64,000 nucleotides of DNA from Euglena gracilis (taxonomy: Eukaryota). How positions within the stretch are numbered: position 1 is the first letter of the stretch; each line of letters begins with the position of its first letter. Shown one piece after another: positions 29,352 to 64,000 of this stretch. The DNA lies in NCBI GenBank assembly GCA_039621445.1, contig CP154954.1:9488634-9552633 (forward strand). The letters are read 5' to 3'. The notes under the pieces are model-generated. The model saw nothing but the letters and a program-made list of their open reading frames with translations, was not told the DNA's origin and did not search any database. The position numbers were made by a program, and so were the translations under genes.

Positions 29352-29662
29352 TGTACGTCCAACCTTTCCTCGCTTTCGCCCTTTGGTGCGCAAAAGGTAA
29401 AAGTTGGAGTAACAGAAAAAAATATAAAAAAATAATATAAAAGTTGAAAAGCCCTTTTCCCCAATTAAGAGGCAGAGCACAAGGCAGGTGAGAAGCCCTA
29501 TGGGCTACGACAAAGAAAAGTGCCAAGTGACTTGGCTGTCCTTTCAGGACTTCAAATGAAAACAAATCAAACTTGAAAATCAAGTCTTGAATGAAATACC
29601 AGAATGGAATAAAATAGAAAATACCACCAAGAACCAGAATAAGGATTGGGTATTCCTAATTC
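29352..29662 (-). repeat. 5' LTR of element A, outer end missing
   Basis: Shares ATTAGGA, GGTGGTATT, GGGAAAAGGG, GGCGAAAGCGA blocks and the GTACA terminus with the element B LTR. Confidence 0.7.
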
Positions 29663-29668
29663 AGGCCG

Positions 29669-31606: not shown

Positions 31607-31927
31607 TGTGTACCAGGCGTATGCTTCTGTCCCCTTCCGTTGAGGAAGTTAGGATGGAAGCAGATCCTATTAGGATTTCCTAATGGGTGCCCCTTCTCTC
31701 TCCACAGGTGGTATTCTTTTATATTCTTCTTATACCTTTTCCTTCCTTTCCTTGGACCGGACTTGGTTATCCAGTCCGTCCTCCCTGCATTGCTCCGTGC
31801 TTTGCTTCTTGGGAAGTGGGAAAAGGGATTTTCTGTTACTCTGATTTTCAGTTCCCAAGTAGGTGCGCCAAGGCGAAAGCGAAGGCTTTTGGGAATTGGG
31901 AAAGGGGAATTGGGAATCAGACGTACA
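31607..31927 (+). repeat. 5' LTR of element B (~320 bp, TGTAC...GTACA termini)
   Basis: First 138 bp identical to 47918-48055; ends GTACA two bases before TGGTAGCAG. Confidence 0.85.
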
Positions 31928-31929
31928 CT

Positions 31930-32089
31930 TGGTAGCAGATTGGTTACGATCCTATACACACTTCACAAACAGAAAGGCTCCCAGGTTTTACACTTGGTAG
32001 CAGATTAGGTCACGATCCTACACATACAGCCCATACAGAAAGAAACGCTATCAAGTATTACACTTGGTAGCAGATTGGTTCGATCCTAC
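31930..32089 (+). promoter_or_regulatory. Primer-binding site, three tandem tRNAiMet-like copies
   Basis: TGGTAGCAGA...CGATCCTA at 31930, 31995 and 32065; complementary to the ...UCUGCUACCA 3' end and GGAUCG T-arm of many eukaryotic initiator tRNAs. Confidence 0.8.
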
Positions 32090-32278
32090 GCTGACTGGCA
32101 GCGGAGGGCCCCTGCACCGTTATTACACGGTCGCAGCGTCAGCTCCCGGCTTCTAGTCAACGTCTAAGCAGACGAGCAGGCTCCGGAAGGTTCTGTACGG
32201 TATTACCCGTTACAGCCCCTCTGGTGCCAGCACAACTGCTTAGTTTTGTGGGTTTTTGCTGTTTTTGTCATCAGAAAG

Positions 32279-41578: not shown

Positions 41579-44500
41579 ATGCTGCCTGGGCGCGGACCTG
41601 GACCAGGTCCACCATGGCCGCAGCCTTCTGGCGCGCCATACCCCCAGTACCCTCAGTATGCTGAGGCCCCGATTCCGGGTGCCCCACATGCCGAGAGGAG
41701 CGCAGCCCCGGTATTCGCCGCGGCTACCAGCAGCCGGTCCGCATATGCGGTACCAGATCCATCTGCCGTCCAGCAGCCGGCACCTCAGCCACCAGCGCAG
41801 CGCAGATCGCGCCTGCCCCCGTATGCGGGAGAGATGATCTTCCGCACTACGGAGACGTTGGAGCGGGCGATGCGTATGTGCGCACACCCCCCAACGGAGC
41901 CCTTTATGCAAGCCCTTTGGGATGCATACTGTGCTCAGTTGTTGGTGGTAGCCAACACCCTGTGGCTCAGTGGTGTCCCTGCGGTCAAGCCCTGATGACG
42001 GGGAGACGGTATTTCTCGTCCGCAGCCGATTCCGGCTTCGAACCCGGCGAGACCATGATGGACCTGGGCGTGTATGTGCCGCCCATGCTGCAAACGCAGA
42101 CGCCGGTGGGATCCCACACCGTGCATATGCGTGAGCACACGCCCCCACCGGTAGGTGAGGCTGTGCATGTCCCACCTGGGATGACGAGAATTTTTGCTCG
42201 CCCGCCCTCGCCGCAGCGAATGCCGCCGCGCGAGCCACCAGCGGAGCAATTTGTCTCGCGGTACGCGACGCACGCGGATTACCCGCGCGGCGCACGCGTG
42301 CTCCCAGCCGGACAGTCGGACGTGCCCTCTGAGGCATACGTCCAACACATGTTCATGCACTGGATGCCACAAGCATCACCGGTCGCCCCTGTCCCTGGCG
42401 TTGAGCCACGGAGACAGGCGGAGCCCATAGTGGTGGAGGATGAACCTCCCCACCGAGAGGCAGCCCGACCGCCCAGTGCAGCCCCTGTCCAGACTGGGGA
42501 TGTCCCCCGTCGGCAGGAGGCTCTCTACTATCATATGGCACCTCCGGGAACCGAGCAGGATGAGCTTGCTCGGCACTTCCTGCAGGAGCCAGTATTCGCG
42601 TCTGAAGAGCACCGGACGAGGTATTACGCCTCTCTGGCTGCCCTTCAGGGTCGTGGATACACCCCCTACCATCCGTACCAGCCGCAGCTGCGGGTGGCAA
42701 CCCCGGTATTACCCGGTGAGCCCCCGGCAGGAGCGGCAGGATTACCTGCCACCCTGAAGCGCGATAGGGTTACGGAGAACCTTACCCCACAGCCCAGGCG
42801 ACCCAGCCCACGGGACGCGGAAGGCGGTGCGGCAATGCAGGTGGAAGCCAGCCAGGATACCCCGGCTGGGCAACCACCGGCAGTGGCACAGGCAGCGATG
42901 AGCCGTCCTGTTGCCGCAATGCCACCGCCGATCCCTCCGGTATGGAAGGAGCCGCGACCCCCTACGCCGAAACCAAGCCCACGCCAGGCTCCTAGCCAGC
43001 GCCCAGCCACGCCGTCACCGCGACGTGCAGCGGAACGACAAGGTCCCTCCCCAGAGATGGAATGGGAAGGTACCGAACCGACTCCTGCCGCACCGAGCGC
43101 CCGACCCTCTGGTATTCGCCAGACAGGGAAGGACAAAGGTAAGGCTGAGGGCAAAGGCAAGGGAGAAGGCAAAGGCGTGGCCGGCAAAGGTAAGGGTGAG
43201 GGGCAAGGGTAAGGGTACAGCCCGTGAGGAGGAGGAAGAACCAGCAGAAGTCCTCTCGGACTTTGAGCATATGCTCAGGTTCAAGGAGGAGCTGGAGGAC
43301 GAAGGCTGGCGAATGCAGCATGATTACCATGTTGCAGGAAACCGCCCCGTCACCCCTCCGGAGGCAGTCATCGAGGTGGTATTACACCACACGAGAACAG
43401 AGTCAGACAATTCCATTACGGAATTGACCTGTACGCCTTCGAAGGTGAAGGTGGCAGACCCTTGCTGGATATCCAGCCGGGTTTCTGGGAACTCTGGTTT
43501 TGGCTGGGATACCCCTGCCAGAACTGGGGTCTCTTCAGCGACTCCACTGGCCGCAGTTACCTGCACCAGTTAGGATTTCGGGACCAGCATGTGTTGGCCC
43601 GAAGGCTGAAGGCAATCTTCGACTGTATTCACACAGTCGGGCCCCTCGGTGTGCAGTGGAAATACTACCCACTGAACCCCGACATCGAACGCCTGATCGA
43701 GGTGTTGTGGTGCAACAACCTCCAGGTGTGGCTGGTGAGCCATTACGGCTCCACCTTCCGCGTTAAGCGCGTTTCCCTGGCTTACCCACAGAGGTATGAC
43801 CTCTGTTGTAAGTATTGCCGGCAGGAGTTTCCTGTCGACTTCTGGGGATTCGGCGTACGCGGAAGTCCTCCACCGCCTCGGGATAACCCGGGCCTGGAGA
43901 TGGGACGCCGCATGCTTATGCATGTGTGCCGCGACGCCCCGGATGTCCAGGGCAAAAGTCGCCGCGTCCATAAGCAGCGTATTTTTATGCTGCAACAGTT
44001 CTGGTGGCGAGCCTGGACCACCTACGTCATGGAGGTGTATATACATCTCCGTGACCCCCAGGACGATAGGCCTGGTATGGAAAGCTTGCCACCAGACTAC
44101 GGCGACCCCGTTGAGGGACCTCGTCGTCGTCGGGTTATCGCCGACCTGCGCCCCAACTGGCACCTGGCCGGGATAGACCTGGAGGAACATTTGAGGCGAC
44201 AGTTTGGCGGTACCCTCGACAGGGAGGTATTCCTTCCGCTGATGGCTCACCCGAAGGCCATCCTCGACCTGGGTATGCCAATTCTGGCATGCGCGCAGGA
44301 GTTCGAAGAGGGCTTTTTCGAGGTCTGGGAAGACACGCGTTACCGCGGCTTCCTGGGCCCGAACAGGCCTGCAAACGCTTGGGTGCAGCCATCATGGCCG
44401 CCACCCTGGCCCAACAGTGCCAGCAGCAGCACGCTGGCCTTTTACAGGCTGGCGGATGCCCAGGGATGCCGATGGCACCCCGACGATCCTCGTTCGCCCG

Positions 44501-47100
44501 AGGATCTGCGCGCCTTCATCGCCCCAGAGGATGAACCTCTGGCGCGAAGGAGACGTGAGGCGTCAGTCGCTTCCACCACCGCGATTCCGCGGCGGGAGGA
44601 ACGCGACCGCAGCCCCTCCGTCACCATTCTGGAGGCAGCGCCGCCGTCTCCGACAGGAACGGCTGTATCATTCGTCTCTGCCCCGCGAGCGGCAGGGGAA
44701 CGATCAGTTTCCCCGGCCCCCGCGGCGGCAGCTCCCGTCTGTCCACCGGTAGGTGGAGACGAGGAACTCCCTCAGGAGGAAGGCGAGAACGTGGAGGATA
44801 TCCTCTACGCTGCTCTGCATCCTCTGGCACAGCCTAGGCCAGACGAAGCACCCGCAGGGGATATACCTGTGGCTGCTACGCCTGTTCCAACGGCTGAGCC
44901 TCCAGCCGAGGTGACTGGTATGGTCGTCGAGGATATCCTCGAAGAATCTGCCAGTCCCACAGCACGCACCTCGTTAGGAGGCCGTGTGCTCGGCGCCGTA
45001 GTCACCGGCATTACTGCCGTGGCTGCTGCACTAACGCCACGAGGTGGAGGCGCAGCATCAAGCTCCGCCGCTGAGGTCGTGGAGACACCAGATGTCGGTG
45101 CGCCACCACACACATCTCTGGCAGCAGTGCAACCACCATCAGGGGATGAACCCCAGCCGACAGAGACATCTGTCGCACCGGCTACATCGGAGGATGAACC
45201 TCCCGTAGCACCTGCGCCAGCGGTTGTGGAGGATCAACCTCCTAGACCGGATGTCGAAATGGAAGTGGAGAGTATACCCCCACGACCACCGACACCGCGC
45301 AGGGTCCCTGCAGTCCCGAGGACAATGGCAGAGTTTCTGGGAGCGCCAGCGCCTGTGGAAGCACCGATTCCGGTGACGGCCACAGTACCACGCTTCGTCG
45401 GACAGGATGAACCTGTTCGGCGACGGCCGGCTGAACAACCCCAGGAACGAGTGCCAACCCCTCGGAGCGTCATGCGCGACCCAGCGGTCAGTATGCCCGC
45501 TTCGCCCAGACGGCAAACGTCTACTCCGGCACCATCGGCTCCTGATACCAGGAGTAAGCCGCAGGCGTCGTCTCCTGATTCCGGGAGTGCGAAGCCGAAA
45601 GGAGGCAAACCGGGTGCTGCACCCTGTAAGCCCCCTTCCAAAGGCGGTGATGGGAAACCACCACCGAAAGGTGGCGCTGGAGGTCAGACTGGCGGACAGC
45701 CGAAAGGCCCTACGACAATGCACGACTATTCGGCCGTTGCATCGTCCGGGTACGGCCAGAGCAAACCGAAAGGTAAGGCTCGTGGTCGACAGGCCCAATC
45801 TTCCGCCGGATCGACGGATGAGGAGCAGGATGAACCTGCTTCACCTCCTGTGTCTGCGGATGCCCAGCTCTGGACCCAGGATATCCTGACCGGACTAGGC
45901 ACCGTGGAAGAGAGGACGAAGAAACTGGCTGCTATTAGGCACCAGAAAGGGTCACTGAATCGATGGATTCAGCCCCTCTTCGTCCGAGGAGAACCTTTCC
46001 ACTATGTCCCGGAACATACCTGGACATTCTGGAACAGGCGCTCACCCAGAGTACTGGCACAGTACTTTGGCGAGGACTGCGTGTTGGATTTCCAGCACGG
46101 CACGTCCTTTGCCTGGACGTGCACCGTATGCCACCATGTGCGGCATAACCAACCGCTTGTGCATGTGTGCAAGCGGCAGGTGCAATCCTCGTGGTTCCAT
46201 CACAGGGCATATGTGCCGAACTGTGTGGCGCTCGTATGTGGCGAGTGCCTGAATGCCTGGAAGCACAGCTTGAACTACTCCTACAGTGAGAATGCTCACG
46301 ACAGGGATATCCCTGCCTTGTGCATCAACTGTATAGGAGGCAAGTTCGTGCAGACTGCTGATGGAGCAGTCACCACCATTGTCCCCCAGCACTGGGAGAC
46401 ACTGGAGAAGTGGAAGAAGGAGTACAAGCAGGTGGAAGGACGCCTGAAGCACTCCGACTTCAAAAAGGTAGAAAGCTACCGCCACACGGGAATGGCCCGT
46501 GAGTTCCAGATCGACGCTGGGGCAATGCGCCTCGCCGTCGAGGAACATGCCAAGGTAAGAATGCCTTACCTCTGGACTGATGGCGACTGGGAGACACAGG
46601 TTTACCCCCTGTTCTCCAAGCGTCAGCATGGCGGATACGCCTTGCCACTGTGGCCTCCTGAAGAACACGATTTGGTGGACTTCAGAGGTTGGTTGGCGGC
46701 TGTATTACGGCCCCATACCGCAAGAGCTCGGACAGCGAGGTGGATGTATGACATCAACTTCAAGCAGACCCCGGGGATGCCCCCGCAGGTGCCTGCGAAT
46801 CACCCCCGGATGAATTACATCATCTGGCCGGTGATGCTGCCCAGAATTTTCTGGGAGCAGCTCCAACGGTATCTTCAGCATCATGCTGAACGTACCAGGG
46901 AGAAGCTGCCGGATAATTGGATCAAGGACTGGGAGACCCCTTCCTTTGATGTCAACGATCCGGAGCTCAACACCATTCGGAGTGAATCAGCTCCGCCGCG
47001 TTCCCCACGCCAACTGGAGTTGGTTGAGGACCCATTAGGGGACCCCCAACACGACTACTGGCGTGAGGTCCGCGAACGTCCAGCCGATAAAGGCAGGTGA
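41579..47100 (+). CDS. Large third ORF of element B (~1800 aa if joined; frameshifts near 41955, 43200 and 43370), Pro-rich with Cys/His domains, function unknown
   Basis: Overlapping ORFs 41579, 41878, 42911 and 43462; the element A homologue reads through the breaks in one frame. Confidence 0.75.
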
Positions 47101-48703: not shown

Positions 48704-51700
48704 GAGGGGTGTGTCAGGTGTTCGCCTGGCGGGGCGTGTTTGTGTCTTTTGATGGAGAGGAGGTTCCCTGTTTGTCTCTCGGCTTCCCGAAGTAGTACGC
48801 ATTTGGCTGTATGTGCTCTGTGTGACGCTGCTGGTGGAGCATTTTGTGGCTAGCGGTGTGCATGTTTAGCGGACGGTGTGTTCCACTCGGAGGAGTTGCC
48901 AGATTTGGCGGGTGAGTGCGACAGCGACGGACTGATAGCCTTCGGCCTGCTTGAGTTCCCCTATTTCTCCTTCTTGCCTCGCCGTGGCTCGTTTGAAGAT
49001 GCGACCGAGCAAGCGGGCGCCCTCTGGGCCGAGGCCTCCCCATGTGCCCATTGCCAAGGTGGTGAAAGACCAACCTGCATTTTGGCAGGTGACGTCATAT
49101 TTAGTTTGCTTGGCAGATTATTTGCGTCGAAGAAAAGACCTCCATCGTTCCCGTGAGGTATTTTGTTCTGGGATCTGCCATGCATGACAGATCGTGACGT
49201 CGAGGGCTGTGGGCTTGCAATCCTGGAAGCATGCCAGTAAGAGATCAGCGGGGCGCAGATTGGCATCGGGGGCATTGGGGATTGTGACTTCCTTCTGGAC
49301 ACCTTGGCCTGTGGAGGATAGGAGGGTGAAAATTGCATCCTGAACAGCCGTGTGTCTGACAGTGAAGTTGTTTCGTGGGCAACAGATGAGGTGGTCCCCT
49401 TCCCTGTCCAGTGGGGCAGCCTTGGCATTTCTGCGTGTCGTCGTCTATGATGGGCATTCCGAGCCACCATTTGAGGCCAAGACAGTACTCATCACTTGAG
49501 AAGACAGTGTGCAGGGCGGGGGACGGTGGAGAGACCATACAACCATGTCCAATTCCTGAGGATTGTTCCAAAAGGCAGGCCTGGTCTCGTGGTTTGCATT
49601 GGTTGATGAGGTTGTCCATTGTGGTTTTTCCTATTTCTGTGGACCACCATTTTTGGGATTGTTCATTTTTTCCGGAGGTCTTGGTGTGGGCCAGATTCCC
49701 CAGCAGTCTTCGGGCTGTCGAGTGGTTGGGCAGGGCAGCACACAAGTTTTTGAGTGGTAGTTCAATGAGATCTGCAACTGGGTCTGTTGCATACTGAGGC
49801 AAACCGATTTTCTGATATCCTTCTGTGTAAAAGGCACAAAGGGCTGCTGTACGTTCCGCTGCTTGGTTGTGTGAGGGTGAGTGGCAGTGCTTCTTGCAGT
49901 CTCTGTGTGGTGTTCAGAGGCACTCCAACGACGTTCTCAAAAGCTTGAAGAATGGTTTCCGAAGATCGGGTGACTGCTTCTTTACAGAGGTAGCTGTTGG
50001 AGGCGCGGAGCAGGTGGTTCACTTTGCAACCGTCAAGACAGGAGCGTAGCAGGTGATGAGAAATTTGGGCATCTGTCATTTGGGTTACAATGTCTGCTGC
50101 GTGTTCAATTTTCCGTGTGGCCGCAACCCACGCTTCAGCTGTCTTTTGGTGGCTTGTAGGGAATTCCACTGGAACTCCCAATACGTGATCCCTGAATGTT
50201 CTTGCCATGGTATGACGGTCATATCTGGTGCGGAGGTGATTAGGTTGCCAGCTGGCCCCCATACCACACACTTTCGGAGGTTCAGTTGGAGTCCGCGGCG
50301 TGTGGCTTCGCCCTGGAGGAAGGAGATGACTTTCTGCAGTTTGTCGGGTTGGCCTACCATGATACCATCATTCAGACACCACGAACTCCAGAGTAGCTCC
50401 GCTTTGTTTCTGATGGTCTCTGCCAGAGGTTGCAGACCAACGCAGAAGCCGACTGGGCCAAGTGGGCAGCCCTGGTTAGTTCCGCAGCGGGACCAGAGGA
50501 TTTTGCCAGCGCAGAATAGGAGGGCAGGGTTCTTGTACGCGAAGTTGAGGTAGTTGAAGAGGCAGGGCGTTCTGGTTGTTGCCTCGAGCAGCAGGTGTGA
50601 CCTGTCTATGCAATTGAAGGCGTTGGAGAAGTTCAGTTGCAAACTTGCCCAATTGCCGGCTGGGTCCAGTTTGTGCACCAGGTGCTGAAAGCCTACTGCC
50701 ACTGATTCTGCTGCATTTGTGACCCCAACGCCGACTTGTGTGGGTTGGAGCTTGCTGACCTGGTCTTTTGCCGTGCCTGTTGCCAAGAGGGCTTTGCCAA
50801 TCAACCTCCGTATGGTCTCACCCACTGCCACCGGTCTGACACCGTCATCCTTTTTTCTGAGCGGAGTCAGGTGGGCGCCGCACCAGAACGGGGAGTGTGC
50901 AGCAGGGAGGTCCCCATTCACCCAGGTGTTGGTCAGTTTGGCGAGTGCTGTAATTAGCTGTGCTCCTCTGCCTGGGCGCTTGATTGCGTCTTGCAGGTGA
51001 GCAGGGCGGAGCCCAGAAGGTCCTGGGGATGAAGTCCGAGGGAATTTCAATGATTGCCTCATGCAGGATTGGTTCCCACGAGATTGATTGTCCTTCCTGG
51101 AACGGTGTCATCTTGGCGGGGAGGTTGTTCAGGTCCACCGGCTTACCGTTTGGGTGAAGGGCTTCCAGTTTGTTCCACACCTGTGGGTCCTGTGGTTTGT
51201 GGGAACCTTCGGAGAGTAATAGTTGGAGTGCTTTGGCTGGGCCTCCTTCCCCTGTGAGCGTTTTGACTCTCTGCAGGGTTCGGTCTGGTAGGCTGGAGGG
51301 TTCTGTTCTTGCCCGTTTTTCCGCTCTGGTTTTAATTAGCGCTGTGGCGTTTGAAATTGCGGATTTCTGTGCTGAGTGGAGCTCTGTCAGTAACGTGCCG
51401 TACTCGCCGGATCGGAACAGGCCGTTTCGTCTTCCAATTGCCGAGGCGAGTTCATCGGGGGCGTGTGTACCTTTCGCATTTACTGTGTGGAGCACCAATC
51501 TGGGGAAAGCCAGGATTGCACAGAGCCCGTCGTCGGTTGGGTTGCTTGTGTATGCGTCGAGGGCGGCTCCAAGGATGTCTCATATCGTGGTTTGGAGAGT
51601 TGCGGGGACATGCAGGATGGTGTTCACGCGGAGCTGTAGGATGTCCTCAATTGGGCAAGGTCTCGCACTGATGGTTATCCCGCATCTGGCGTTGTTTCTC

Positions 51701-52505: not shown

Positions 52506-54817
52506 AAATGTTCGTTGCAGGGAGATATTTCTTCGAATATTGATGCCGGGGGGGGGGGGCTCTGGGTTGTCTGATCAGCTGAACAGGTTGAGCAGGGCCA
52601 TAAGGGCACACCGGTGGAGGAAGTCCTGGATCTATGGGCAGTTGAGGAACTGCTCCAAAGGCCCACAAGGCCCACAATGATAGATAAACTGCTGGGCCAG
52701 GGTGTACTGGGCCAGGATGCAGTACTGGGTGGGCTGTTGATGGCTGAGGGTCAGGGCCAAAATGTGTGGGTCTCAGATGGGGAAGCTCTGGTGTCAGTCC
52801 CCAGAAGGCCACTGATTGATTGGGTTGAGTGGTTTGAAGGTGTGTGCCTCAGAAGTGTTTGTTGGAGCAAAAGCCAAGCAGGATGGGGGGAATGCCTCAT
52901 AAAAGTTTGTTGTAGCCAACGAGTATGAAAGTCATCATCCAACCCCAGTGTTCTGACAACAATCCCAAAGAAATGAAAGGCAGTAGCCAGACATTATGCT
53001 GGGGGGTAGGGGACATGTGAATCAGCAACTATGGTAGAGGGGAACAAATGTGGTGTCATGTGACCAGAGACCATGCCAGCAGTGGACTTGACAAAGAGGG
53101 CCCTCCTGAACTGGGCTCTCCTGTCATTGGCCCCTTGGCCACCATGAGCATTTCCCTGGTTGGGTCTGCTTCCTCAATGCAGCAGCTGCGGGATGTCCAT
53201 CACCAGGTCCTTCTGGGACCAGTCCGCTGGGTTGATGGGTCTTGGCTGGTAGCGTGGTTGAACTGGATGATGGGGTTGGTGTGGGGGTTGAGGGAGCTGG
53301 GGTTGAGGTTGATGTACAGGTTGAGGGTAGCCTGGACCAAATTGAACTCTGATGAGGGCATGCTGGAGGATGACATTGAAGGTGGCGGTCTTGTTGGTGA
53401 GCCAAAGGTTGTGAGATGTTCAGCTGTGTAGTGGTTCAACGGTGGTGGCTCATGAATGGACCAGGGTCTCAGTACAGGGCCAGGGTTGGTCTTGGGTTGT
53501 AGGCCTTCCACATCAATGGCATCAACCTTGGTAGGCTTTGGTTGAGCTGGGGGTCTTGGCCTGGCAGCCTGGGATGCATTGGTCTGTGACCCCTGATCTC
53601 TGACCCTGCATCTGGGTCCACCCACTTGGGTCCCAATGGAACTGATAGCTGGGCAGGTCATGGTCCCCCAACTGCAGAAGGTTTTGGGCAGGGAGTCCCC
53701 AGCTGGAGTGAGGGGTGTCGATGCTGCCAGAGCCTGAGTGGGAGATGTCGATGTAACCACAGCCAAGGTGGGAGATGTCGATAGAGCCACAGCACCAGAA
53801 GGTGATGGTTCAGGTTGTGGTGTAGATGGGGTCGGGGAAACTGAGGAGTTGAAGGCTGGGTGCGAACTCAACATGGTGGATGGGGATGGTACTGGTCCCA
53901 ATGCCAGAAAGAAGGAGCCAAACATCAGTGTGACTCTGAGGCATGAATGGATGGTTGCTGACTTATGGGGGCCAATGAGAAAATTAGGCCAATAATTGCT
54001 GCAATGTTGACTGCAAAAAGGCTTTGGCAGGTCCAAAAGGCTGACAGGCTTTTTCTGGGGGGCTTTTGCAGGCCCAATACATGAGGAGGGAGAGCCGATT
54101 CCAGTGGAGGGTTTTGCAAACCCAATATTCCAGACTTTGAGACGGCTTCCAGAGGGGGCTTTTGCAGGCCCAATATTGAAGGTTGGGGCTTTTTCAAGCC
54201 CAAATGTGACGTGGAGAGCTTTTGCAAGCTCAAATATGCACCCAGGCTGTCAGTAGTAGTTGACTGTCGGCGGCGACCACGTCGGCACGGTAGTACGGCG
54301 TCGTCTTCGTTCTCGTCGTCATGCAGCAGGCTGCCCAGTAGTCTGCAGTAGTCTGCGACGTGACGCAGGGTCTTCACAGTCCACCTCCATGTCGAGTCTC
54401 CGCTTGGTTCCAGTCTGCGTGGTCAGGGCGGCGACGATGCTCTTGGACCCCGTCTGGGGCTTTCCGGCCATGTTATGCGGAAGGCGAAAAAAAATTGACA
54501 CTCAGAAATTGAACTCAGTCCACCGACCAGTGGCACAGCCTACTGGTTTTGAGTGTTCAGGGGTGTCGGAGGCTATGTACAGATGGGGGAACCCCATGGA
54601 TAGTCCGAGGTGTCAACTGTCGCCGGGCTCAGCGGGAGGAAAATGGGCAAGGCCCATCTTCAATATAAAGCGCAGGGGGAGGGCAGGGCGGTGCTACAAA
54701 CCGTGTGGTATGGTCGTCGGCGGGTTTGCAAGAGGTGGGTTGCGGGGCGTGGGTGGGGGGGCGGTTTGTCGTTGTCTCTCTCTGTGTGTGTGTTGTTGTG
54801 TGTGTGCTGTGTTGCCC

Positions 54818-55850: not shown

Positions 55851-56624
55851 ATATAGGAAGTGGGTCTTGCCCACGGGCAGAAAAGCAGGGGCACCATACA
55901 CAAACACACCCCGCCATGCAAACCCCCCCCCCCCCCGCCAAGGTATATATATGGATCGTTGGTCTTGCCCACGGTCTCCTAACCAGCTGACCGCCAACAA
56001 TGCCTATACTTGCAGTGTACACTACCATCAGTATAACCTACCCGCGATATAACCTACCCGCGGCACAGGAAGTCACAAGAGGGTTCCTCTTGTGGCGCGG
56101 GCCAAAAGAAACGATACCCTGGGCCCAGGGCACGGTTCGGGTGAAGCTGTGCTACCCACCGTGAATTCTCAACCGTCCTTTGTAGCTTTTCTGCATGTTT
56201 TTTTTCGACATGTCACATGGCTGACATGTCCCCCGGTGGGGTTCTAGTTACAAGCTGGGATTATAAAGTACAAGTTTTCAAGTTTCAACTTTCTGTACAA
56301 CATTGTAAGTCCAAGGAAAAGACCAAGGCGAAGTGGAGAACTGTTTGCAAGAGCATATGTACGCTGGTGGACAGTGCTTCTAGCCTCAGTGCTGGGGCTT
56401 CTTTGGCCGTATGCTGCTGGTTACTGCAGAATTGACTTTAAGTCGGTCTGTTTTACTTTTTGTGAACTGTTTTGTTTCTTGCCTTTTCTTTTTGTTTCTG
56501 TTTACAAAATAGCCCCAGAACAAAGGAAACCGAGGAACTTCGGTCTGTTTTTGCAAAGCTCCCATTCAGATTGTGCCAGTGTGCTAAATGTGAAAGGGAT
56601 TTTGAAGATTTTGAAGATTTTTGG

Positions 56625-56935
56625 GCCACAGGTGGTGGCCAGTTTTGGGCCACATGTGTTGGCCAGTTTTGGGCCAGATGTGGTGGCCAGTTTTGGGCCA
56701 GATGGTGCCAGATTTTGACCAGAAACCTTTTTGTCCTGAGGTGCTCGTTTTCTTCTGAAACTTGTTTTTTTTGTTTCTTGCATTCTTTTTTTCCTGTGCA
56801 ACAATTTCTCTTGCTCAAAAAACCTAAACATTTGGGGGGGTTCGGTTTTTGCGTCTGGCAAATGGGTAAGTTTTGGAGGGTTTGTAGTGGGCAAATGGGT
56901 AAGTATTGGAGGGTTTGTAGTGGGCAGTTTTGGAA
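56625..56935. repeat. Short 24-bp and 33-bp minisatellites
   Basis: GGTGGCCAGTTTTGGGCCACATGT about 3.5 copies; GGCAAATGGGTAAGT.TTGGAGGGTTTGTAGTG two copies plus a partial. Confidence 0.7.
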
Positions 56936-57214
56936 AGATGGGTGGCCATGTTTTTTGCCACATTTGCTGGCGATATTTTCCCAACGAGGCGAACGAGTGG
57001 CCACAGGTTTTTTTGGGCGGGGGGGCCTTCGGCCGGTACGTCTTTTGTCCTCCCGTGCGGGTTAAAGCCAACAGGCGGGCCGTATTTCTGTCCGAACGTT
57101 CACCCGGGTGCACTTCGGGCTTCAACTTAGTCCCCCTCCGGTGCACACATTCATTCCTGATTCAGACGTCACTGCGTACGGCGTGCGTGTTGTTTGGTCT
57201 GGATAGCCGGCATG

Positions 57215-57282
57215 TTGGCTGGCTAGGTTGGTCTGCCAGCCGGCTAGGTTGGTCCGGCCAGCCGGTTAGGTTGGTCCGGCCA
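57215..57282. repeat. ~22-bp tandem repeat
   Basis: GGCTAGGTTGGTCCGGCCAGCC, three copies. Confidence 0.7.
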
Positions 57283-58581
57283 AACGCCCCCCTTCAATGA
57301 CCCGCGTTTTACAACGCAGCCCTTCGGTGAGAGACTGCCCGATAACCGCCAAAGGCTTGGGAAAAGTTCCTCTCGGTGCGCATGTGCACATGCGGGCACG
57401 ACAGTCCTCCATCTCCGGCGGCGGTGTAAACAAAACAGCGAGCCCCGTAGCGACGCATGATGACCCACGTGGCAGAGGATCCACCATCTTCCTCAACTAC
57501 AATCTGAGGAACTAGTGCCCGGAAGCCACTCCGGCAGCCGATCAATCGCGGCCCCACCTCGCACCCTTCTTTAGCTCACATCTTTTCCCCTTTTCCCTGC
57601 CCTCCCATCGCCTGGCCCTAGCACAGACTATCGCTTCTGTACATAGCCTTACCCCTGGAACACATCAAATCCAGTAGGCTGTGCCTCTGGTCGGTGGACT
57701 CGGTTCGCGCCACCACCGTTGTTGTAGTGTGTCTTTTTGTCCATGCACAACAAGCGTTTCGTTTGTTCGCCGGCCCCACCCCCTGTGCGCCGCCGGTCGC
57801 CCCCGCGACCGGCGAGTCCCGGTGGGCCGAGGGCCCGGGGGGGCCTCGCCGTCGTGGAAAACCACCAACAGCCGGGGGGTGGGTTTTTCCGGGGTGGGGC
57901 CGGGTTGGTGGGCTCAAGCCAACCCCCGTTTGTTTCACTCAGGTATTTTCCCCAACCCCTGCCGGTGCGTAGGATCGTTTTTGTAATGTTTTCTGAAAAT
58001 TTGGTGAACACCGAAAAATCTGCCATTTGCAATGAAATAGAACTTTTCTCTCTGAAATCTCACTTTTCTCTCTTTCTCTCTCTCACTCTCTTTCACACCG
58101 TTAAGGAAAAACCAACCCACTGAATTCTGAAATGAATTCCAACCCACTGGAGAAGCAATCACACTGTTGGAAATCTGTGAGAGTGACTGAATGTGATAAA
58201 AAAAACAACCTGGGGCAAGGAAGAGGGGTATAGGGAATAGAAGCGGCGGTGAGGGTGGCGGTGTTGTAGGGTCTCCTTCTTGATTTCAATACCAAATTGA
58301 CTTCAACAACTCCACCAACAATGTAATGACCAACAATGTAACTGTCAATTCCAATTAAACAATGTGATTGATCAAATCCAATTCAATGTATTTCCTCTTT
58401 GCCAAATAATGGGGAAAACCCCTCAAGTTCTGTGAAAAATGACAAATTTGAAGGCGCTTAGAAATTTGACCCGCTTCCAATTTAAGTCGCGGGTTTCTCT
58501 AACTGATTGGCTGTTACCCGCGACTTTGTAATTTACGCTTTCTGGCAATTTTTGGCTGCCGGCGAAAGCCGGCGGCCGACA

Positions 58582-58592
58582 CCCCCTCCCTT
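58582..58592 (-). promoter_or_regulatory. Probable polypurine tract of element C; 3' LTR would start at 58581 and run leftwards
   Basis: Minus strand AAGGGAGGGGG followed by TGTC, like the element B PPT; second LTR is outside the window so unconfirmed. Confidence 0.5.
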
Positions 58593-58859
58593 GCGACCTT
58601 AGTCGGACACCAAAAATTCGCCCCCCCCCCCGTTCCTCAACAACAGAGGGAAAATCCTCCATTCGGCACTATTTCATCCAAAGCCTATGTCCCCCACCCA
58701 TTCTCCCTTGAATCAACAAATGGGAAACAAACTTCAGGGACTATGGCTTTCAAGTGCCTTCAAACCTTTGGGAAAGACTCGGTTCACCAACCAACGAGTA
58801 TTAGGCTGCCCCTCCCCCCGCTTCCACGGGTGGTATGAGGGTCTTCACCAAGATCTTCC

Positions 58860-59100
58860 CCTCCCCTTCCAACGGGTCGGGGGTTTTTGGTAAAATTTCG
58901 GTTGGCGCCCCCCCCCCTTCGGGTCGGGAGGATTTTTGGTTCAAATTCGTCAAGCCCCCCCCCCCTCCTCGGGCAGGGGGATTTTTGTCAAAAAATCAAG
59001 CGCACCCCCCCATTTTCGGGCCGGGGGGATTTTTGTCAAAAAAATCATGCCCCCCCCCTCTCCTCAGGTCGGGGGGATTTTTGTCAAACCGAACGGGGGT
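58860..59100. repeat. ~50-bp degenerate tandem repeats in the 3' UTR of element C
   Basis: CCCCCC..CGGG.CGGGGGGATTTTTGTCAAAA recurring about five times. Confidence 0.7.
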
Positions 59101-59384
59101 TCATAATGTGACCAAGGACTCCCAACCACAATGTAACCCATCATCTCAAAGAATCAATCTCCAAACCCTAACAACATCGGGAGGGAAGAGGAGGGGACGG
59201 CAAATATAGATAGTGCGGTGGGGCAATGAGCGCAGTGGGGGGAAATATAATAGCAATGCGGCGGCGAATGCACTGAGGTGCCCCTTGCACTCCTGAAAGG
59301 TAGAGAAAGGTAGAAAGCCTTGGACAGGGCCTTATGGCTCACCTTAGAGCCTACGGCCCACCGTCAATTTTAAGTTCGGACATT

Positions 59385-62300
59385 ATGTCCATTTTCACTT
59401 TTTTCTCACGGCAATACTTCACAAACTCCCAACTGAACCTGTGAATAAAATTCCCAGCCGGTTCCCAGGTCTGCTCTCCGTCTTCATATCCGACCCACTT
59501 TGTTTAAAACTCCCACTTTCCATCCTTTCCTTTCCGATGCCTTAGAATTTTCTCCACCTCCCACTGATCAGGTAATGCCTCTTCTTCTTTTTCGGTACGT
59601 TTATAATATAAAAAGGCACCCCTTTCCCTTTAACTTGGGGTTCCCGATACTCCTTCAAAAAACTCCTATGAGCTTTTGTCTCCACCCCAGGTTTCATTTC
59701 GATTACATAACTTCGTTCCCCTTCTCTACCCTTCACGACCCCAGGTCCCACCCACCTACAGTCAAGATTCTCACCCGACCCTTCGGGTCTCCTATACCAA
59801 ACCATCATCCCCACCTTTAGGGGTTCCATTTCTTTCCTCCCCTTATTTATCATTGCCACCTCCTCCTCATGCTTTTTGTTGAGTATCCTAGCCACCCTCC
59901 CATCAATGTCTTGCATCCTTCGGAAAAAATCCACCGAATCCTCACATTCTTTGGGTGGTTGGTAGGGTACCCCTGCTAATGGTCGTTCCCTCCCATGTAG
60001 AATTTCATATGGGCTGAACCCACTTTCCCCCTTTACGTCGTGAATTCGGTCCACAGCTTGGGGTAAAGCTTCAACCCAATTAATTTTTTCTTTCACGTAC
60101 AAATTTCTCAACACCTCCATTACCTGTTGTCCGGCTCTCTCAATCCTCCCGTTTGCTTGGTGGTGGTATGCTTGGGAATATGCTTGCCTAATCCCCAAAA
60201 GTGCACACATGTTTTTCCACCAAGTTCTTGTGAAACGGCTCCCTTGGTCACTTGAGATGACCGAGGGAACCCCAAAAGGCCTCCACTGATTTTTCACCAT
60301 TTCCTTAGCCAACTTGGCACCGGTTAATCCCTTGTCCTTGCATGCAACCCCCACAATCCATCCCGAATGCCTATCCACACAAAGGGCTAGGGTGTCATAC
60401 TCCCCCCCATCGTGTAAAACCCTTGGCATTCGAAACAAATCGATGGCAACACTTGTCATTAGTGCAGGGGGTATGGGTGTGGACTCGATCGGTCCTTTCA
60501 AACTCTTCCCCCTCACACTCGCTTGGCATGTGAAACAATTTTTGCTGCACTTTTGGTTGAGTTGTTTTGCAGCCTTTTCATCAGCCCAAACAAAACGGAT
60601 TGCCATGTGTTTCCAACTTTTTCAGGGCCAACGTTCCCCAAACACTCGTGAAGTTCTTGAATCACCAAGTGTTGAAAACTTTCCGGCACACACAACTTTT
60701 CTTCAAAAAGCAATTGGCCATTTAGCTCTTTGAAGCCCGTTGGCCAAATTGAATCGCCTTTGGTAGCTACCCATTTTTCTTTCCATGTGGGGCATTGGGA
60801 ATATGCTTCCCCCCAATCACGCTCCCATACGGGCTTAATATCCTTAGGGGTCGTACTTGGCAGGGCGTCCCCCACTTCCATACGAGTGTCCCCCCTCGAA
60901 CTTTCAGCCGTCTCCGGGACAGGGGTCGTCTCCCCCCCCCACTTTCTCATCCCAAAAATGAACCCGTTTCTTTTCTTTCCTGGGCCATTGTGAGTGGGTG
61001 TCCACAGGGGTGTCTTTTCCTCCTGGGTCTACCCCACCCTCGGTTCCCCTCCTTGTGCACTCTCCTTTTTCCTCCTCAGGTGTTACGTTTTTGCCACTAC
61101 GGGTTGTCACCCCCCGTATCCAGGCATTACGTAAATTGGGCTGGTTTTTGATTCTTATCTCCAAACACTTTTTTTCCTCTTCTTTTTCCTCCCGGATAAA
61201 ATTTTCCATTTCATCCTTGTCTTCGGCTGACCCATGCTTACTTATATCCCTTAGGGCCTGTGAATCTGGGTATGCCCACCGACTAATAATGTCGGCTATG
61301 GTATTTTCTTTACCCGGGATATATCCCACCGTCAAATCATACTTGGAGAAAATTTGGTGCCATCTCGCCCTCCTCCCAACCGGACCACTGGGGGTGTCCA
61401 GGACTTCCCTTGTCCAAGACTCCAAACTTTGGTGGTCGGTTAAAACCAAAACGGGTTGCAATCCAATCCAACTCTCCCACTTTTGTAGTGCCAAAATTAT
61501 GGCATATGTCTCCAACTCCCTGGGGGTCCATTTTCTTTGCCCCTCGGTCAATTTTCGAGACATAAAAGCCACTGGCACAGTTTTTTTCTCAATCACATCT
61601 TGGGCTGTGGGCCCCCCTCCTTCATTTGCTCTAACGCCCCCCACGGCGTACCCACTGGCATCTACCCTTAGCACAAAGGGTTTATCTGGGTCTACCGTTG
61701 CAACATTAGGCCCGAACACAACCATTTTTTCAGCTCCTCAAAAGCTTTTAAAACCTCCCCATCAAATTCCACAGGTTTTCGACTTCCTTTCTTTCCCACC
61801 TCCCTAGGGACTTTCAATTTGTCTTGCAGCCGGGCAGCTACTTCCGCATACATGTGAACGTATGCATTGTAATAATTTGTGAATCCCAAAAAGGCTCTCA
61901 AAGCCGTAATTGTTTTTGGAACCTCCCACTATTCGATCGCTCGTAGCTTACCCGGTGCAGGCCTCCTAGTCCCATTTCCTAAAATCTGTCCACAAAATTA
62001 AACCCCCTCCACAAAAAGTTTGGCTTTGAATTCATCAGCCACCAAAAGTTCTGTTTTGAGCACTTCCAACACTCTCCTCAAATCTTTTTCATGTGCCCCC
62101 ACTAGATCCTCCCCTTCCCCGACCGTTGTCCACACCAGTATGTCGTCTATGTCCCCTGTGGCGATATCCCTTACTGGTGTCAAACGGTCATCGATCATTT
62201 GCTGAAATTGTTGGGGGGCATTTGTCAAACCCATTACGTTCACCCTCCACTGAAAAATCCCTTTGGGGGTGAAACAACACGTTATGGGTCGACTTTCTGG

Positions 62301-64000
62301 GTGTGAAGGTTGTTGGTGAAAAGCTTGATTTGAATCAATGATCGAAAACATTTGGTTTGCACCATGTTTGACAAAATGTCTTCAATTTTGGGTAAGGGGT
62401 AGTTGCATCGCCTTGTTTGGCTGTTTGGGCCCCTGAGGTCCACCACCCCCCTCCAAGGAGAATCGTTGGATTTTTTTGGAACTGGAAAAGTCTGGGACAG
62501 CCATTCAGAATTTTTGGCTGTGGCTGGCTCAATGTATTTTTTGTCGAGCCAGTCTTGGGTGATTTTTTCAAGTTCCTCTTTCCTCTCAGCATACATGAAA
62601 AAAGGCTTCTGTCTGGTTGGCTTTGCCCCCTCCTTCAAAGGTATGTATGCATAACCATATTGTCCTCTTTCGGGGGGGGTCTGGAAATGGCGATTACCGA
62701 AATACCGTCCCCCGGTAATCTTCCAAAACTTGTTCCCTCAACTTGACTACCCGTTCCTCCTCTTTTTTGTCCTCCCCCTCCCTTGCAATTATCATTCGGT
62801 TGACAACTTGCACTGGGGGGTCACTTCCTTCCAAATTTGTGGCAACCTCCCCCAAGTCCTCGTCACTCAAAAATTGCAAGTCCTGGTCCAACCCTTCCAA
62901 TGGCAAACAAAGACCAAGTTTTTGCAACCCAAACGAAGACCCGTCCGCCACAGTCACATTGTCCACTAAAACATTTGTGTCATCCCTGAATTTTTGCGGA
63001 CCCCTCCGTCCTTCAACACCCCGCAAAAAAATCAGGTCGGGGCTGTCTTTCACCAATGCCTTGTGGTGTGGAAAAATTCCCAGTTTTGCCTCCGCCAACC
63101 ATGGATAAGAAAGAATGGCATCAACTTTGATGTTTGCCTCATAAAATTCAAACTCATATTCCACAAACTCAATTTCCCTTTCCTCATTCGAATTTTGTTG
63201 AAGGATCATTTTCACCTTAGCACATCTGCTCCCCCCCGCCAAAGTTTGCCCATTGGCTGTTTCAAACCTTAACGGGTCCTTAGCAGGATACATTAGGTGG
63301 TCCCCTATCAACCCTTGTCGAATGAGGTTTGCCTCAGCCCCCGTGTCAATTAAAATTCTGGCCGTTTTTTCCTCCCCATTTGCCAACCGTATCTGTGTTT
63401 TTAACAGCAGTTGTCTGTCCTCCCCAAGTTTCTTTGCTCCTCCCCGAGTGTTTGTCCCTCTCAACATTCTTTTTTTCAGCCGCACCAATTTTTTCTTTCC
63501 TGGGGCTGCCCCCCCCTGGGAGGGTTGCCTTCTATCAATCAACAAGGCCCACACCCCCCAACGGGTACCCCTCAAAATCCACCCATCAGCCTCAAACAAC
63601 TTTGTCCCCTTGGGAAAATAAATCTTTTTGACAGCAATAGCCACCAGATTTCTCACCCACCTCCTATTCCAGTCTGGGCAAATACAAATTGCCCGACAAT
63701 TGGAATTTTGCAATTTTTCAGCCACCTCAGGCCACAAAGTCCAGGGGGGGTTCATCCACAACGTTTCCTCCGCCCCCCATTCCTTTTTCGTGGCATCATC
63801 ATCCTCCCCATAAAACTTTTCACACCTGGCATTTTGGCTGGTTGCAAAACAATCCCGTTACGCCTTAACCCGAAATTCATTCTCAATTTCCTCCATACAA
63901 ACTTTCCTAACAGCATAATCCTCCCTACGATATCCGCTTTTTCGTTCCAACACGGTTAACAAATACTCCACCAGTTGTTTGGGCACCCTCCATTTTTTCT
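59385..64000 (-). pseudogene. pol: Element C pol: second Ty3/Gypsy chromovirus family (Dam-like, protease, RT, RNase H, integrase, chromodomain); decayed, runs off the right edge
   Basis: WMNPPW; ILIDTGAE; WRGVVDLR, DIDD; VDASGYAVGG; CFTC, SDQGSRF, NGRIER; WEVEKIL..KWVGYEDGEQTWEP; several frameshifts. Confidence 0.93.
63560..63925 (-). other. Dam-like N6-adenine methyltransferase domain upstream of protease in element C
   Basis: Hand translation EDYAVRKVCMEEIENEFRVKA*RDCFATSQNARCEKFYGEDDDATKKEWGAEETLWMNPPWTLWPEVAEKL..RAICICPDW; one stop at 63858-63860. Confidence 0.88.

What the first reader, a model, noticed from the sequence alone, without database searches (positions are those of the whole stretch)
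62694..63925. A second, distinct Gypsy family carries the Dam domain on the other side of the protease, with intact NPPW
Seen: in element C the domain (DCFA..NARC..FY...DDA....W.....WMNPPW) precedes ILIDTGA in the same reading frame (Dam-PR-RT), whereas A and B are PR-Dam-RT. The RT and integrase of C are clearly divergent from A/B. Established: (D/N/S)PP(Y/F/W) is catalytic motif IV of amino-methyltransferases. Inference: either repeated independent capture or domain shuffling, suggesting selection for the domain in this host. This copy has one stop, so it is dead, but the family may be catalytically active.
Basis: partly seen in the sequence, partly recalled or inferred. Interest (0 to 1): 0.85.

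Follow-up and report, generated by a model that had tools for sequence, protein, structure and literature searches.

The report
Dead Euglena-type Gypsy element carrying Dam
This is a broken copy of a very abundant Gypsy-type jumping gene, probably from Euglena, whose enzyme polyprotein carries a phage-like adenine methyltransferase domain in front of its protease; a 2026 preprint has already described this class of element.

Summary
On the minus strand, one frame (62694-63998) encodes a Dam-like domain (Pfam PF05869 above its cut-off, D-C-F-A and N-P-P-W motifs intact) followed by an aspartic protease. RT, RNase H, integrase and a chromodomain follow, down to 59351.

The Dam segment is not a separate insertion. 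A transcriptome protein 96% identical to this copy (P0037, 1540 aa, labelled EG_transcript_113) reads Dam-PR-RT-RH-IN-chromo in one open frame. So do 50-65% identical relatives.

- The first 17 codons at the window edge are the tail of a C5 cytosine methyltransferase module. The family type is therefore DNMT-Dam-PR-RT-RH-IN-chromo.
- This copy has 5 premature stops and 6 frame changes, not one stop.
- Sister lineages carry PR-Dam-DNMT, Dam-PR-DNMT, Dam-DNMT-PR and DNMT-PR orders.

Dam, DNMT and RT trees agree broadly, which favours re-ordering within one chromovirus lineage over fresh capture. Independent capture for A/B versus C stays open.

Dam-carrying LTR elements of Euglena gracilis, including DNMT+Dam+chromodomain "EpiLTRs", are in a May 2026 preprint. 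Catalysis is untested.

The parts
63948..63998 (-). Last 17 codons of a C5 cytosine DNA methyltransferase (DNMT) module, cut by the window end
   Evidence: The 17 residues match the C-terminal end of the DNMT module of P0001 (82% identity, E 7e-13) and P0039 (69%, E 2e-7). They match weakly the end of the DNMT module in type II proteins and in Dam-less P0057 (E 0.004-0.02). No DNMT domain proper lies inside the window.
63531..63923 (-). Dam-like N6-adenine methyltransferase-like domain (PF05869 type), about 131 codons
   Evidence: Pfam Dam 39.4 bits, E 6.6e-10, with X at the stop. Local HMM E 1.4e-56. AlphaFold2 model with pLDDT 93.1 has a methyltransferase fold.
63858..63860 (-). Premature TAA inside the Dam module, three codons before the D-C-F-A motif
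   Evidence: The 96% identical P0037 has a sense codon at this position.
63843..63854 (-). Motif D-C-F-A (motif I-like; the D is invariant in the family)
   Evidence: D invariant and F in at least 90% of 91 aligned sequences. D in 151 of 155 and F in 146 of 155 domains.
63741..63752 (-). Motif IV N-P-P-W
   Evidence: NPP[W/F/Y] is present in 139 of 155 homologous domains.
63039..63419 (-). Retropepsin-like aspartic protease; D-T-G at 63339-63347
   Evidence: Pfam PF13975/PF13650 at E about 0.001, below cut-off. Local HMM E 2.9e-60.
61917..62581 (-). Reverse transcriptase, split over two frames; the Y-I-D-D box reads D-I-D-D; premature stops at codons starting 62000 and 61931
   Evidence: Pfam RVT_1 E 1.2e-10 on the fragment. 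HMM hits in two frames. Frames and stops.
61339..61692 (-). RNase H
   Evidence: Pfam RT_RNaseH E 1.3e-22 on ORF 60904..61737, residues 16-133.
60163..60396 (-). Integrase catalytic core (rve)
   Evidence: Pfam rve E 8.2e-10 on ORF 59542..60621, residues 76-153.
59450..59563 (-). C-terminal chromodomain, holding a premature TAA at 59504-59506
   Evidence: Pfam Chromo 39.7 bits, E 4.6e-10, with X at the stop. Stop found.
59351..59353 (-). Normal end of the pol frame (same end as P0037)
59608..62677 (-). Six frame changes relative to the intact relative, near 62667-62677, 62366-62372, 61695-61731, 60916-60935, 60621-60639 and 59608
   Evidence: tblastn of 30-residue pieces of P0037. Contigs of runs X15, X17 and X20 carry 1-7 base insertions or deletions relative to the window at 62672, 62371, 61694, 61637, 61611, 60932 and 60614.

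Best explanation
Element C (minus strand, 59351 to beyond 64000) is a decayed copy of a very abundant chromovirus-type Ty3/Gypsy family of a euglenid, probably Euglena gracilis. Its pol polyprotein has the module order DNMT - Dam-like - protease - RT - RNase H - integrase - chromodomain. It belongs to the Dam-carrying LTR elements ('DAM-LTR', and 'EpiLTR' when a DNMT and a chromodomain are also present) described for E. gracilis in a 2026 preprint. Shown: the Dam-like module is an integral in-frame part of the family, not a nested insertion. It is a compact class-I methyltransferase fold of about 130 residues, related to phage PF05869 Dam, and its D-x-F-A and N-P-P-W motifs are conserved across the family. 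Shown: this particular copy is dead. Inferred: the position of Dam before the protease, against after it in A/B and in the PR-Dam-DNMT sister lineage, results from re-ordering of separable N-terminal pol modules by recombination within a chromovirus lineage that already carried them. It does not need a fresh capture. Inferred at roughly even odds: in intact copies the module is released by the protease and transfers a methyl group from SAM to adenine N6 on the element's own nucleic acid, either reverse-transcription intermediates or the new DNA copy. That would give new insertions the 6mA mark which the preprint links to permissive chromatin.
For: Identity and continuity: Pfam Dam above cut-off plus protease in one frame. 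P0037 is 96% identical over 100% of the ORF, 1540 aa, with Dam 3-53, PR about 177-230, RVT_1 473-638, RNase H 736-856, integrase 1073-1248 and Chromo 1471-1509. P0039 (1763 aa) and P0042 (1911 aa) are 63-65% identical to P0037 end to end and add PF00145 DNMT in front of Dam. The window's first 17 residues match that DNMT tail. Abundance and expression: 20 of 24 listed runs hold part of the stretch, 10 of them half or more of its words. In run X1, 14,627 contigs were laid on the stretch. Contigs of one RNA-Seq run (X20) and two runs guessed to be RNA cover 29-30 of 30 bins. P0037 itself comes from a transcriptome set. Domain nature: tblastn hits on phage DNA N-6-adenine methyltransferases (best E 2e-5). 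AF2 model pLDDT 93.1, pTM 0.83. Best structural matches are adenine-N6 methyltransferases: CAPAM 6irx_A (Z 10.8, rmsd 2.8, 125 aligned), T4 Dam 1q0s_A and E. coli Dam 2ore_D (Z 8.5); Foldseek top hit CAPAM at E 2.2e-4. Constraint: NPP[W/F/Y] in 139 of 155 domains and the motif-I D in 151 of 155. Re-ordering: among 206 sequences classified with local HMMs, 28 have Dam before PR and 24 have PR before Dam, in six and four architectures respectively. P0116 is confirmed as Dam-PR-DNMT by Pfam. Type I versus type II identities: Dam 44-47%, DNMT 47-51%, RT-IN 40-43%, PR 24-36%. The type I and type II Dams form one clade at 97-98/98. RT and DNMT trees each recover a type I group (100/100 and 98/98) and a type II group (100/99 and 93/91). 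Function model: the preprint reports more 6mA-methylated insertions among DAM-LTRs than among other LTRs, including in E. gracilis.
Against: No methyltransferase activity has been shown. The preprint's expression of DIRS, DAM-LTR and adintovirus Dams in dam-deficient E. coli did not raise 6mA, and it found LTR expression in E. gracilis low or undetectable. The DNMT part of family C itself is unseen: the window ends in its tail, and the P0037 ORF begins only 13 residues before D-C-F-A, so in that transcript DNMT is not in the same ORF. No LTR, gag or target-site duplication could be defined for this copy. The only repeats found near its 3' side are a short local repeat (58858-59088) and one 75-base match elsewhere in the window (57636-57706 against 54511-54583). 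My trees hold no DIRS Dams and only two phage outgroups. The sets were fished with C as bait, so the counts of architectures are not a census. Many relatives come from unnamed metagenome or ENA contigs, where chimeric assembly of repeats is possible. VIA Z values of 7-8 are common background, so only the top match (10.8) stands clear.
Confidence: 0.8

Rival explanations
1. The C lineage and the A/B lineage each captured a Dam domain separately from DIRS-like elements of the same host. The different position relative to the protease would then reflect two insertion events, not re-ordering.
For: The preprint infers at least four DIRS-to-LTR transfers. [quoted passage not shown] In my Dam trees A+B sit on a long branch (1.5-1.8) outside the 33-row clade that holds C. 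A and C Dams share only 28% identity.
Against: A is also the distant one in the backbone. In the RT tree the A+P0203 branch is 2.35 long, and A's integrase region is 27.6-33% identical to types I and II, against about 41% between types I and II. Dam divergence therefore tracks element divergence. A/B have lost the N of NPP (HPPP/HPPL), which may explain faster change. All 50 retroelement Dams form one clade against the two phage Dams (100/98). No RT-Dam (DIRS-order) protein was among the 206 sequences.
Confidence: 0.25
2. The Dam-like module is not a dsDNA adenine methyltransferase. Either it methylates RNA or RNA:DNA hybrids (the element's transcript or replication intermediate), or it is a non-catalytic SAM- or nucleic-acid-binding module.
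For: Eukaryotic Dams produced no 6mA in E. coli; the authors themselves raise an RNA-DNA hybrid substrate. The best structural matches are RNA adenosine-N6 methyltransferases (CAPAM Z 10.8; DIMT1/KsgA/Erm 8.2-8.8), ahead of T4 and E. coli Dam (8.5). The preprint says the eukaryotic domain lacks parts of the bacterial target-recognition region.
Against: Sequence kinship is with phage DNA adenine methyltransferases. The phage IMM-001 protein annotated as DNA N-6-adenine methyltransferase is just as small, at 165 aa. DAM-LTR insertions are enriched for DNA 6mA. Strong conservation of NPP[W/F/Y] (139 of 155) argues against a purely structural role. The Z differences of 1-2 units are weak.
Confidence: 0.2
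3. The Dam segment belongs to another element nested in C, or the junction is an assembly chimera.
For: The host genome is repeat-rich, and the preprint warns of nested insertions and assembly artefacts in E. gracilis.
Against: There is one continuous frame from the DNMT tail through Dam to PR in the window. The same order lies in one ORF in a transcriptome protein and in at least 17 further database proteins by motif order. Dam precedes PR in 28 of 206 sequences by HMM. Contigs of separate runs span 62724-63680 (X20), 63484-64000 (X17) and 63568 to beyond 64000 (X15).
Confidence: 0.02

Closest known systems
Euglena gracilis DAM-LTR / 'EpiLTR' retrotransposons (Fernandez-Moreno et al., bioRxiv 10.64898/2026.05.21.726589; read here: abstract, Introduction, Results, Discussion and passages of Methods; no figures or supplements)
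   Same: Ty3/Gypsy-like LTR elements of E. gracilis that encode a DIRS-type Dam domain. A subset also carries a C5-DNMT and a chromodomain. The Asn-Pro-Pro pocket is conserved. The authors propose modular evolution and domain exchange.
   Different: Probably nothing in kind: family C is most likely one of these elements. The main text does not mention the protease, the position of Dam relative to it, or several module orders ('protease', 'aspartic', 'permut', 'rearrang', 'shuffl' and 'OTU' each occur 0 times). Its Fig. 2B and supplements, which I could not see, may show them.
DIRS1-type retrotransposon methyltransferase (MT) domain
   Same: The same PF05869-like Dam domain inside a retroelement pol; the preprint derives the LTR Dams from DIRS. 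PMC3266345 and PMC2685390 were seen only as search listings. That DIRS1 elements carry this domain after RT-RNase H is recalled knowledge.
   Different: C has a DDE integrase, a protease and a chromodomain, and the Gypsy order PR-RT-RH-IN. It has no tyrosine recombinase, and Dam lies upstream of RT, not downstream.
Phage DNA N-6-adenine methyltransferase, Pfam PF05869 (for example Escherichia phage IMM-001, 165 aa, and Klebsiella phage HJK1, 243 aa)
   Same: Direct sequence similarity (32% over 86 aa, E 2e-5; 24.6% over 110 aa). Similar small size. N-P-P-Y/W and D-x-x-A motifs in the same order.
   Different: The phage enzymes are free-standing proteins. C's domain is one module of a retroelement polyprotein, and its activity is unproven.
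Retrotransposons with captured C5 DNA methyltransferases (de Mendoza et al. 2018, PMC5890265; seen as search listing and abstract start only)
   Same: A DNA methyltransferase module carried inside a retrotransposon pol; relatives of C carry PF00145 next to Dam.
   Different: Those elements (dinoflagellates, charophytes) carry a DNMT without Dam. Per the preprint, the Euglena DNMT is a separate acquisition.

Membership tests
Pfam PF05869 Dam (DNA N-6-adenine methyltransferase) | Score at or above the curated gathering cut-off (28.1 bits) | tested here: met
   32.3 bits for the ORF; 39.4 bits read through with X. Elements A (15.9 bits) and B (22.5 bits) fall below the cut-off.
Pfam PF05869 Dam (DNA N-6-adenine methyltransferase) | Motif IV (D/N/S)PP(Y/F/W) and the upstream D-x-F/P-A motif | tested here: met
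   N-P-P-W at 63741-63752 and D-C-F-A at 63843-63854. Both are conserved in 139 and 151 of 155 homologues respectively. The motif nomenclature is recalled.
Pfam PF05869 Dam (DNA N-6-adenine methyltransferase) | Class-I SAM-dependent methyltransferase fold | tested here: met
   Model pLDDT 93.1. Matches: CAPAM Z 10.8, T4 Dam and E. coli Dam Z 8.5; Foldseek E 2.2e-4. No match by sequence to any solved structure.
Pfam PF05869 Dam (DNA N-6-adenine methyltransferase) | Transfers methyl to adenine N6 in DNA | not testable with these tools
   The preprint's E. coli assays with related eukaryotic Dams were negative.
Ty3/Gypsy chromovirus | pol order PR-RT-RNase H-DDE integrase | tested here: met
   Window fragments and the intact relative P0037.
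Ty3/Gypsy chromovirus | Chromodomain at the C-terminus of the integrase | tested here: met
   PF00385 39.7 bits at 59450-59563; also in P0037.
Ty3/Gypsy chromovirus | Flanking LTRs, primer-binding site/polypurine tract, and gag | tested here: inconclusive
   The 5' part lies beyond the window end. No second copy of the 3' flank exists in the window. Other copies diverge from this one below 59316 (loose ends).
Euglena 'EpiLTR' (DNMT + Dam + chromodomain LTR element, as defined in the preprint) | Dam domain and chromodomain in one LTR-element pol | tested here: met
Euglena 'EpiLTR' (DNMT + Dam + chromodomain LTR element, as defined in the preprint) | C5-DNMT domain in the same pol | tested here: inconclusive
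   Only the last 17 residues of the module lie in the window, and no DNMT domain hit is found in it. The P0037 ORF starts after the module. Relatives at 63-65% identity (P0039, P0042) have PF00145.
DIRS retrotransposons | Tyrosine recombinase instead of DDE integrase; Dam after RT-RNase H | tested here: not met
   An rve integrase is present and Dam lies upstream of PR and RT. No RT-Dam order was found among the 206 sequences classified.

The most novel reading that the evidence does not exclude
The Dam-like module does not act like a bacterial Dam on double-stranded DNA. It methylates adenine in the element's own RNA or in the RNA:DNA hybrid made during reverse transcription. It works as one of several free-standing cassettes (Dam, DNMT, protease, sometimes OTU) that recombination has re-ordered at least three times at the N-terminus of pol in euglenid chromoviruses. 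The same genome offers a natural control: family C keeps NPPW, while families A and B have HPPP/HPPL.
Probability: 0.15. Interest if true: 0.7.

Novelty: already known. Interest (0 to 1): 0.35.

Why it matters
Retrotransposons that carry their own DNA-modifying enzymes show that mobile elements can write epigenetic marks, not only be targets of them. This locus adds little to the principle, which is in a 2026 preprint. It does make three points concrete:
- One genome holds lineages with the adenine-methyltransferase module on either side of the protease, with and without the catalytic Asn. That allows a within-genome comparison of 6mA on copies of matched age.
- Dam, DNMT and protease occur in at least six orders among close relatives, which marks the pol N-terminus as a zone of module exchange.
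- Dam-less DNMT-PR-RT relatives nest among the Dam-bearing ones, so the module can also be lost.

Tried and rejected
- Whole-genome search: no genome is held for this window, so family-C copies could not be collected from the assembly.
- Earlier scan notes: none by place, sequence or words.
- Sequence search of solved structures with the 91-row profile: only one irrelevant hit at E 0.23.
- Search for long relatives of A's Dam domain: one protein only (P0203, 76% identity), so no DIRS link was gained.
- DIRS Dams: none could be identified among the best 150 of 674 representative hits.
- LTR search for C: a self-comparison of 56501-59400 against the window gave only a short local repeat (58858-59088) and a 75-base match at 57636-57706 against 54511-54583.
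- The stop at 63858-63860 in other copies: read laying printed only 40 of 236 differing places and none at that codon, so nothing can be said from reads.
- Nested-insertion reading: rejected (see rivals).
- Pfam on neighbouring large ORFs (29660-30922, 31187-32008, 41665-43212, 43324-47100, 18207-20345): no families.
Full report
**What is at the coordinates**

Stop-to-stop ORF listing shows a 387-codon frame on the minus strand, 62694..63857. It begins R-D-C-F-A-T, holds W-M-N-P-P-W 32 residues later, and holds I-L-I-D-T-G-A about 135 residues after that.

Pfam gives Dam (PF05869) at E 9.5e-8 and 32.3 bits, above the 28.1-bit cut-off. It also gives two aspartyl-protease models at E about 0.001, below their cut-offs.

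The frame is preceded by one TAA (63858-63860). Read through with X, it stays open to the last base of the window. The Dam match then lengthens to residues 34-87 and scores 39.4 bits.

A six-frame scan with HMMs built from relatives gave these positions:
- Dam module of C at 63531-63923.
- Protease of C at 63039-63419.
- Two further Dam modules, in elements A (37703-38044, +) and B (25649-25993, -), both downstream of their proteases.

**The rest of element C**

Downstream on the same strand lie RT, RNase H and an rve integrase core, then a chromodomain (PF00385, 39.7 bits) at 59450-59563. The pol frame ends at 59351-59353.

The copy is badly decayed. Laying 30-residue pieces of the intact relative P0037 on the window shows six frame changes. 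Translation of each in-frame segment shows five premature stops, and the RT box reads D-I-D-D.

Contigs from three other runs carry small insertions or deletions relative to the window at the same places as the frame changes. These are therefore lesions of this copy. 'One stop' holds only for the Dam-protease stretch.

**Is Dam part of the family?**

The protein searches gave the following:
- The first search found 36 proteins at E<=0.001 among 4685 candidates. P0001 (61% identity, 100% coverage) and P0002 (62%, 97%) have Dam and protease in one ORF.
- The search among longer proteins found 21 proteins among 6449 candidates. The best, P0037, is 96% identical over the whole query and 1540 aa long. 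Its source labels it EG_transcript_113.
- Pfam places Dam, protease, RT, RNase H, integrase and chromodomain along P0037 in that order.

Contigs of separate runs span the Dam-protease region and run on beyond the window end.

I read the label EG as Euglena gracilis; that is recalled, not given by a tool. The family is very abundant in the coded 'organism A': 14,627 contigs of run X1 were laid on the stretch, and 20 of 24 listed runs hold part of it.

P0001 starts with the second half of a C5 cytosine methyltransferase. P0039 (1763 aa) and P0042 (1911 aa) are 63-65% identical to P0037 from end to end, and both carry PF00145 in front of Dam.

The first 17 residues of the window's frame match the end of that module:
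- 82% identity to P0001, E 7e-13.
- 69% identity to P0039.
- Weaker matches to the end of the DNMT module where it is not followed by Dam.

The type is thus DNMT-Dam-PR-RT-RH-IN-chromo.

Whether family C still has a working DNMT is open. The window ends there, and the P0037 ORF starts only 13 residues before D-C-F-A.

**Other module orders**

I classified 206 sequences with local HMMs: 202 database proteins plus four window translations. All had been fished with C's ORF or C's Dam domain, so this is not a census.

| Class | Count | Architectures |
|---|---|---|
| Dam before the protease | 28 | DAM-PR 8, DNMT-DAM-PR 7, DNMT-DAM-PR-RT 6, DAM-PR-RT 4, DAM-PR-DNMT 2, DAM-DNMT-PR 1 |
| Protease before Dam | 24 | PR-DAM 16, PR-DAM-DNMT 4, PR-DAM-DNMT-RT 3, PR-DAM-RT 1 (element A) |
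| DNMT and protease, no Dam | 8 | DNMT-PR 5, DNMT-PR-RT 3 |
| Dam only | 124 | - |

Pfam confirmed Dam-PR-DNMT for P0116. It also confirmed PR-Dam-DNMT-RT-RH-IN-chromo for P0047 and P0050, and PR-Dam-OTU for P0015.

**Capture or re-ordering?**

Pairwise identities between type I (DNMT-Dam-PR, including C) and type II (PR-Dam-DNMT) are:

| Module | Identity, type I vs type II |
|---|---|
| Dam | 44-47% |
| DNMT | 47-51% |
| RT to integrase backbone | 40-43% |
| Protease | 24-36% |

The trees give a consistent picture:
- **Dam tree, 50 rows.** The type I and type II Dams form one clade (98/98). C is sister to P0037 (100/99). The order label needs 5-6 changes, of which strongly supported branches force 2-3.
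- **Dam tree with two phage outgroups.** All retroelement Dams are one clade (100/98). The type I+II clade stays (97/98). Forced changes are 3-4.
- **RT tree, 19 rows.** It recovers the type I group (100/100) and the type II group (100/99).
- **DNMT tree, 21 rows.** It recovers a type I core (98/98) and the type II group (93/91).
- **Dam-less relatives.** DNMT-PR-RT proteins such as P0055 nest with type I in both the RT and DNMT trees, which suggests loss of Dam.

Modules that diverge in step with the backbone are best explained by re-ordering, or exchange between close relatives, inside a lineage that already had them.

For C against A/B the answer is open:
- A/B Dams lie outside the type I+II clade on a long branch.
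- A is just as remote in the RT tree and in integrase identity.
- I had no DIRS Dams to place between them.

**Nature of the domain**

Sequence evidence:
- tblastn of the 117-aa domain against phage genomes hits annotated DNA N-6-adenine methyltransferases (1110 records at E<=1; best E 2e-5 with 32% identity over 86 aa; 44 records cover at least 80% of the query).
- A full scan of 1.84 billion representatives found 674 proteins at E<=0.001 and 208 at E<=1e-10.
- In 155 domains of at least 95 residues, NPP[W/F/Y] occurs in 139 and the motif-I Asp in 151. A and B read HPPP and HPPL.

Structural evidence:
- The AlphaFold2 model from a 91-row alignment has pLDDT 93.1 and pTM 0.83.
- Foldseek's three hits at E<=0.001 are all cap-specific adenosine N6-methyltransferase.
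- VIA-align gives that enzyme Z 10.8 (rmsd 2.8, 125 aligned). DIMT1/KsgA/Erm score 8.2-8.8, and T4 Dam and E. coli Dam score 8.5. The tool warns that Z 7-8 is common background.
- No solved structure matches by sequence.

The fold and motifs fit an adenine-N6 methyltransferase. The substrate is not settled.

**What is already in print**

Two full-text searches found one directly relevant work: Fernandez-Moreno et al., bioRxiv, May 2026. I read its abstract, Introduction, Results and Discussion, plus passages of Methods. I saw no figures or supplements.

It reports:
- Dam domains in non-DIRS LTR elements.
- Five DAM-LTR lineages, including a mixed Euglena DAM-LTR/DIRS group.
- 'EpiLTRs' with Dam, DNMT and chromodomain in E. 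gracilis.
- A conserved Asn-Pro-Pro pocket.
- No 6mA gain in E. coli assays.
- More 6mA-methylated insertions among DAM-LTRs, including in E. gracilis.

Its main text never mentions the protease, module order relative to it, or OTU. Its Fig. 2B shows 'representative domain architectures' that I could not see.

**Verdict**

The feature is real and correctly seen. It is a dead member of a class that is now described. The points added here are:
- The DNMT tail at the window edge.
- The true state of decay of this copy.
- The expressed, open 1540-aa relative.
- Evidence that Dam, DNMT and protease have been re-ordered several times among close relatives.

Noticed in passing
window 32168-41383 (+): Element A looks intact. 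A 1362-codon ORF with a CCHC zinc knuckle (32168-36256) and the 1708-codon pol ORF (36257-41383) lie in the same reading frame, separated by a single stop codon. This suggests gag-pol expression by stop-codon read-through.
   Followed up: partly
window 37703-38044 (+) and 25649-25993 (-): The Dam modules of A and B read H-P-P-P and H-P-P-L where the family has N-P-P-[W/F/Y]. Only 5 of 155 aligned domains have His at that position. Both score below the Pfam Dam cut-off. About 275 residues of unknown nature separate A's protease from its Dam module.
   Followed up: partly
window 29900-29923 (+): A 2A-like motif (D-I-E-S-N-P-G-P) lies near the start of ORF 29660-30922, upstream of ORFs that look like a non-LTR element. 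Pfam found no family in these ORFs.
   Followed up: partly
P0015 (database relative, 500 aa): A relative with protease, then Dam, then an OTU-like cysteine protease domain (PF02338, 30.0 bits) in one ORF. The preprint's main text does not mention OTU.
   Followed up: no
P0055, P0057, P0033, P0054, P0030 (database relatives): DNMT-protease(-RT) proteins without any Dam module. P0055 nests with the Dam-bearing type I group in the RT and DNMT trees, which suggests that Dam can be lost.
   Followed up: partly
window 43324-47100 (+), 41665-43212 (+), 18207-20345 (-): Large ORFs (1258, 515, and 399+312 codons) with no Pfam family. By eye, the 43324-47100 and 18207-20345 products share motifs, so they may be two copies of an unknown repeat family.
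   Followed up: no
window 50085-51107 (-): A reverse transcriptase (PF00078, E 2.9e-8) of another element, apparently non-LTR, flanked by further ORFs on the same strand.
   Followed up: no
window 3562-6528 (-): Long tandem arrays that translate into repeated units of about 40 residues in ORFs of 210-217 codons.
   Followed up: no
P0037 residues about 1452-1497, against window 59450-59563: The transcriptome protein has a direct duplication of 22 residues across the start of the chromodomain. The window copy has this stretch only once.
   Followed up: no
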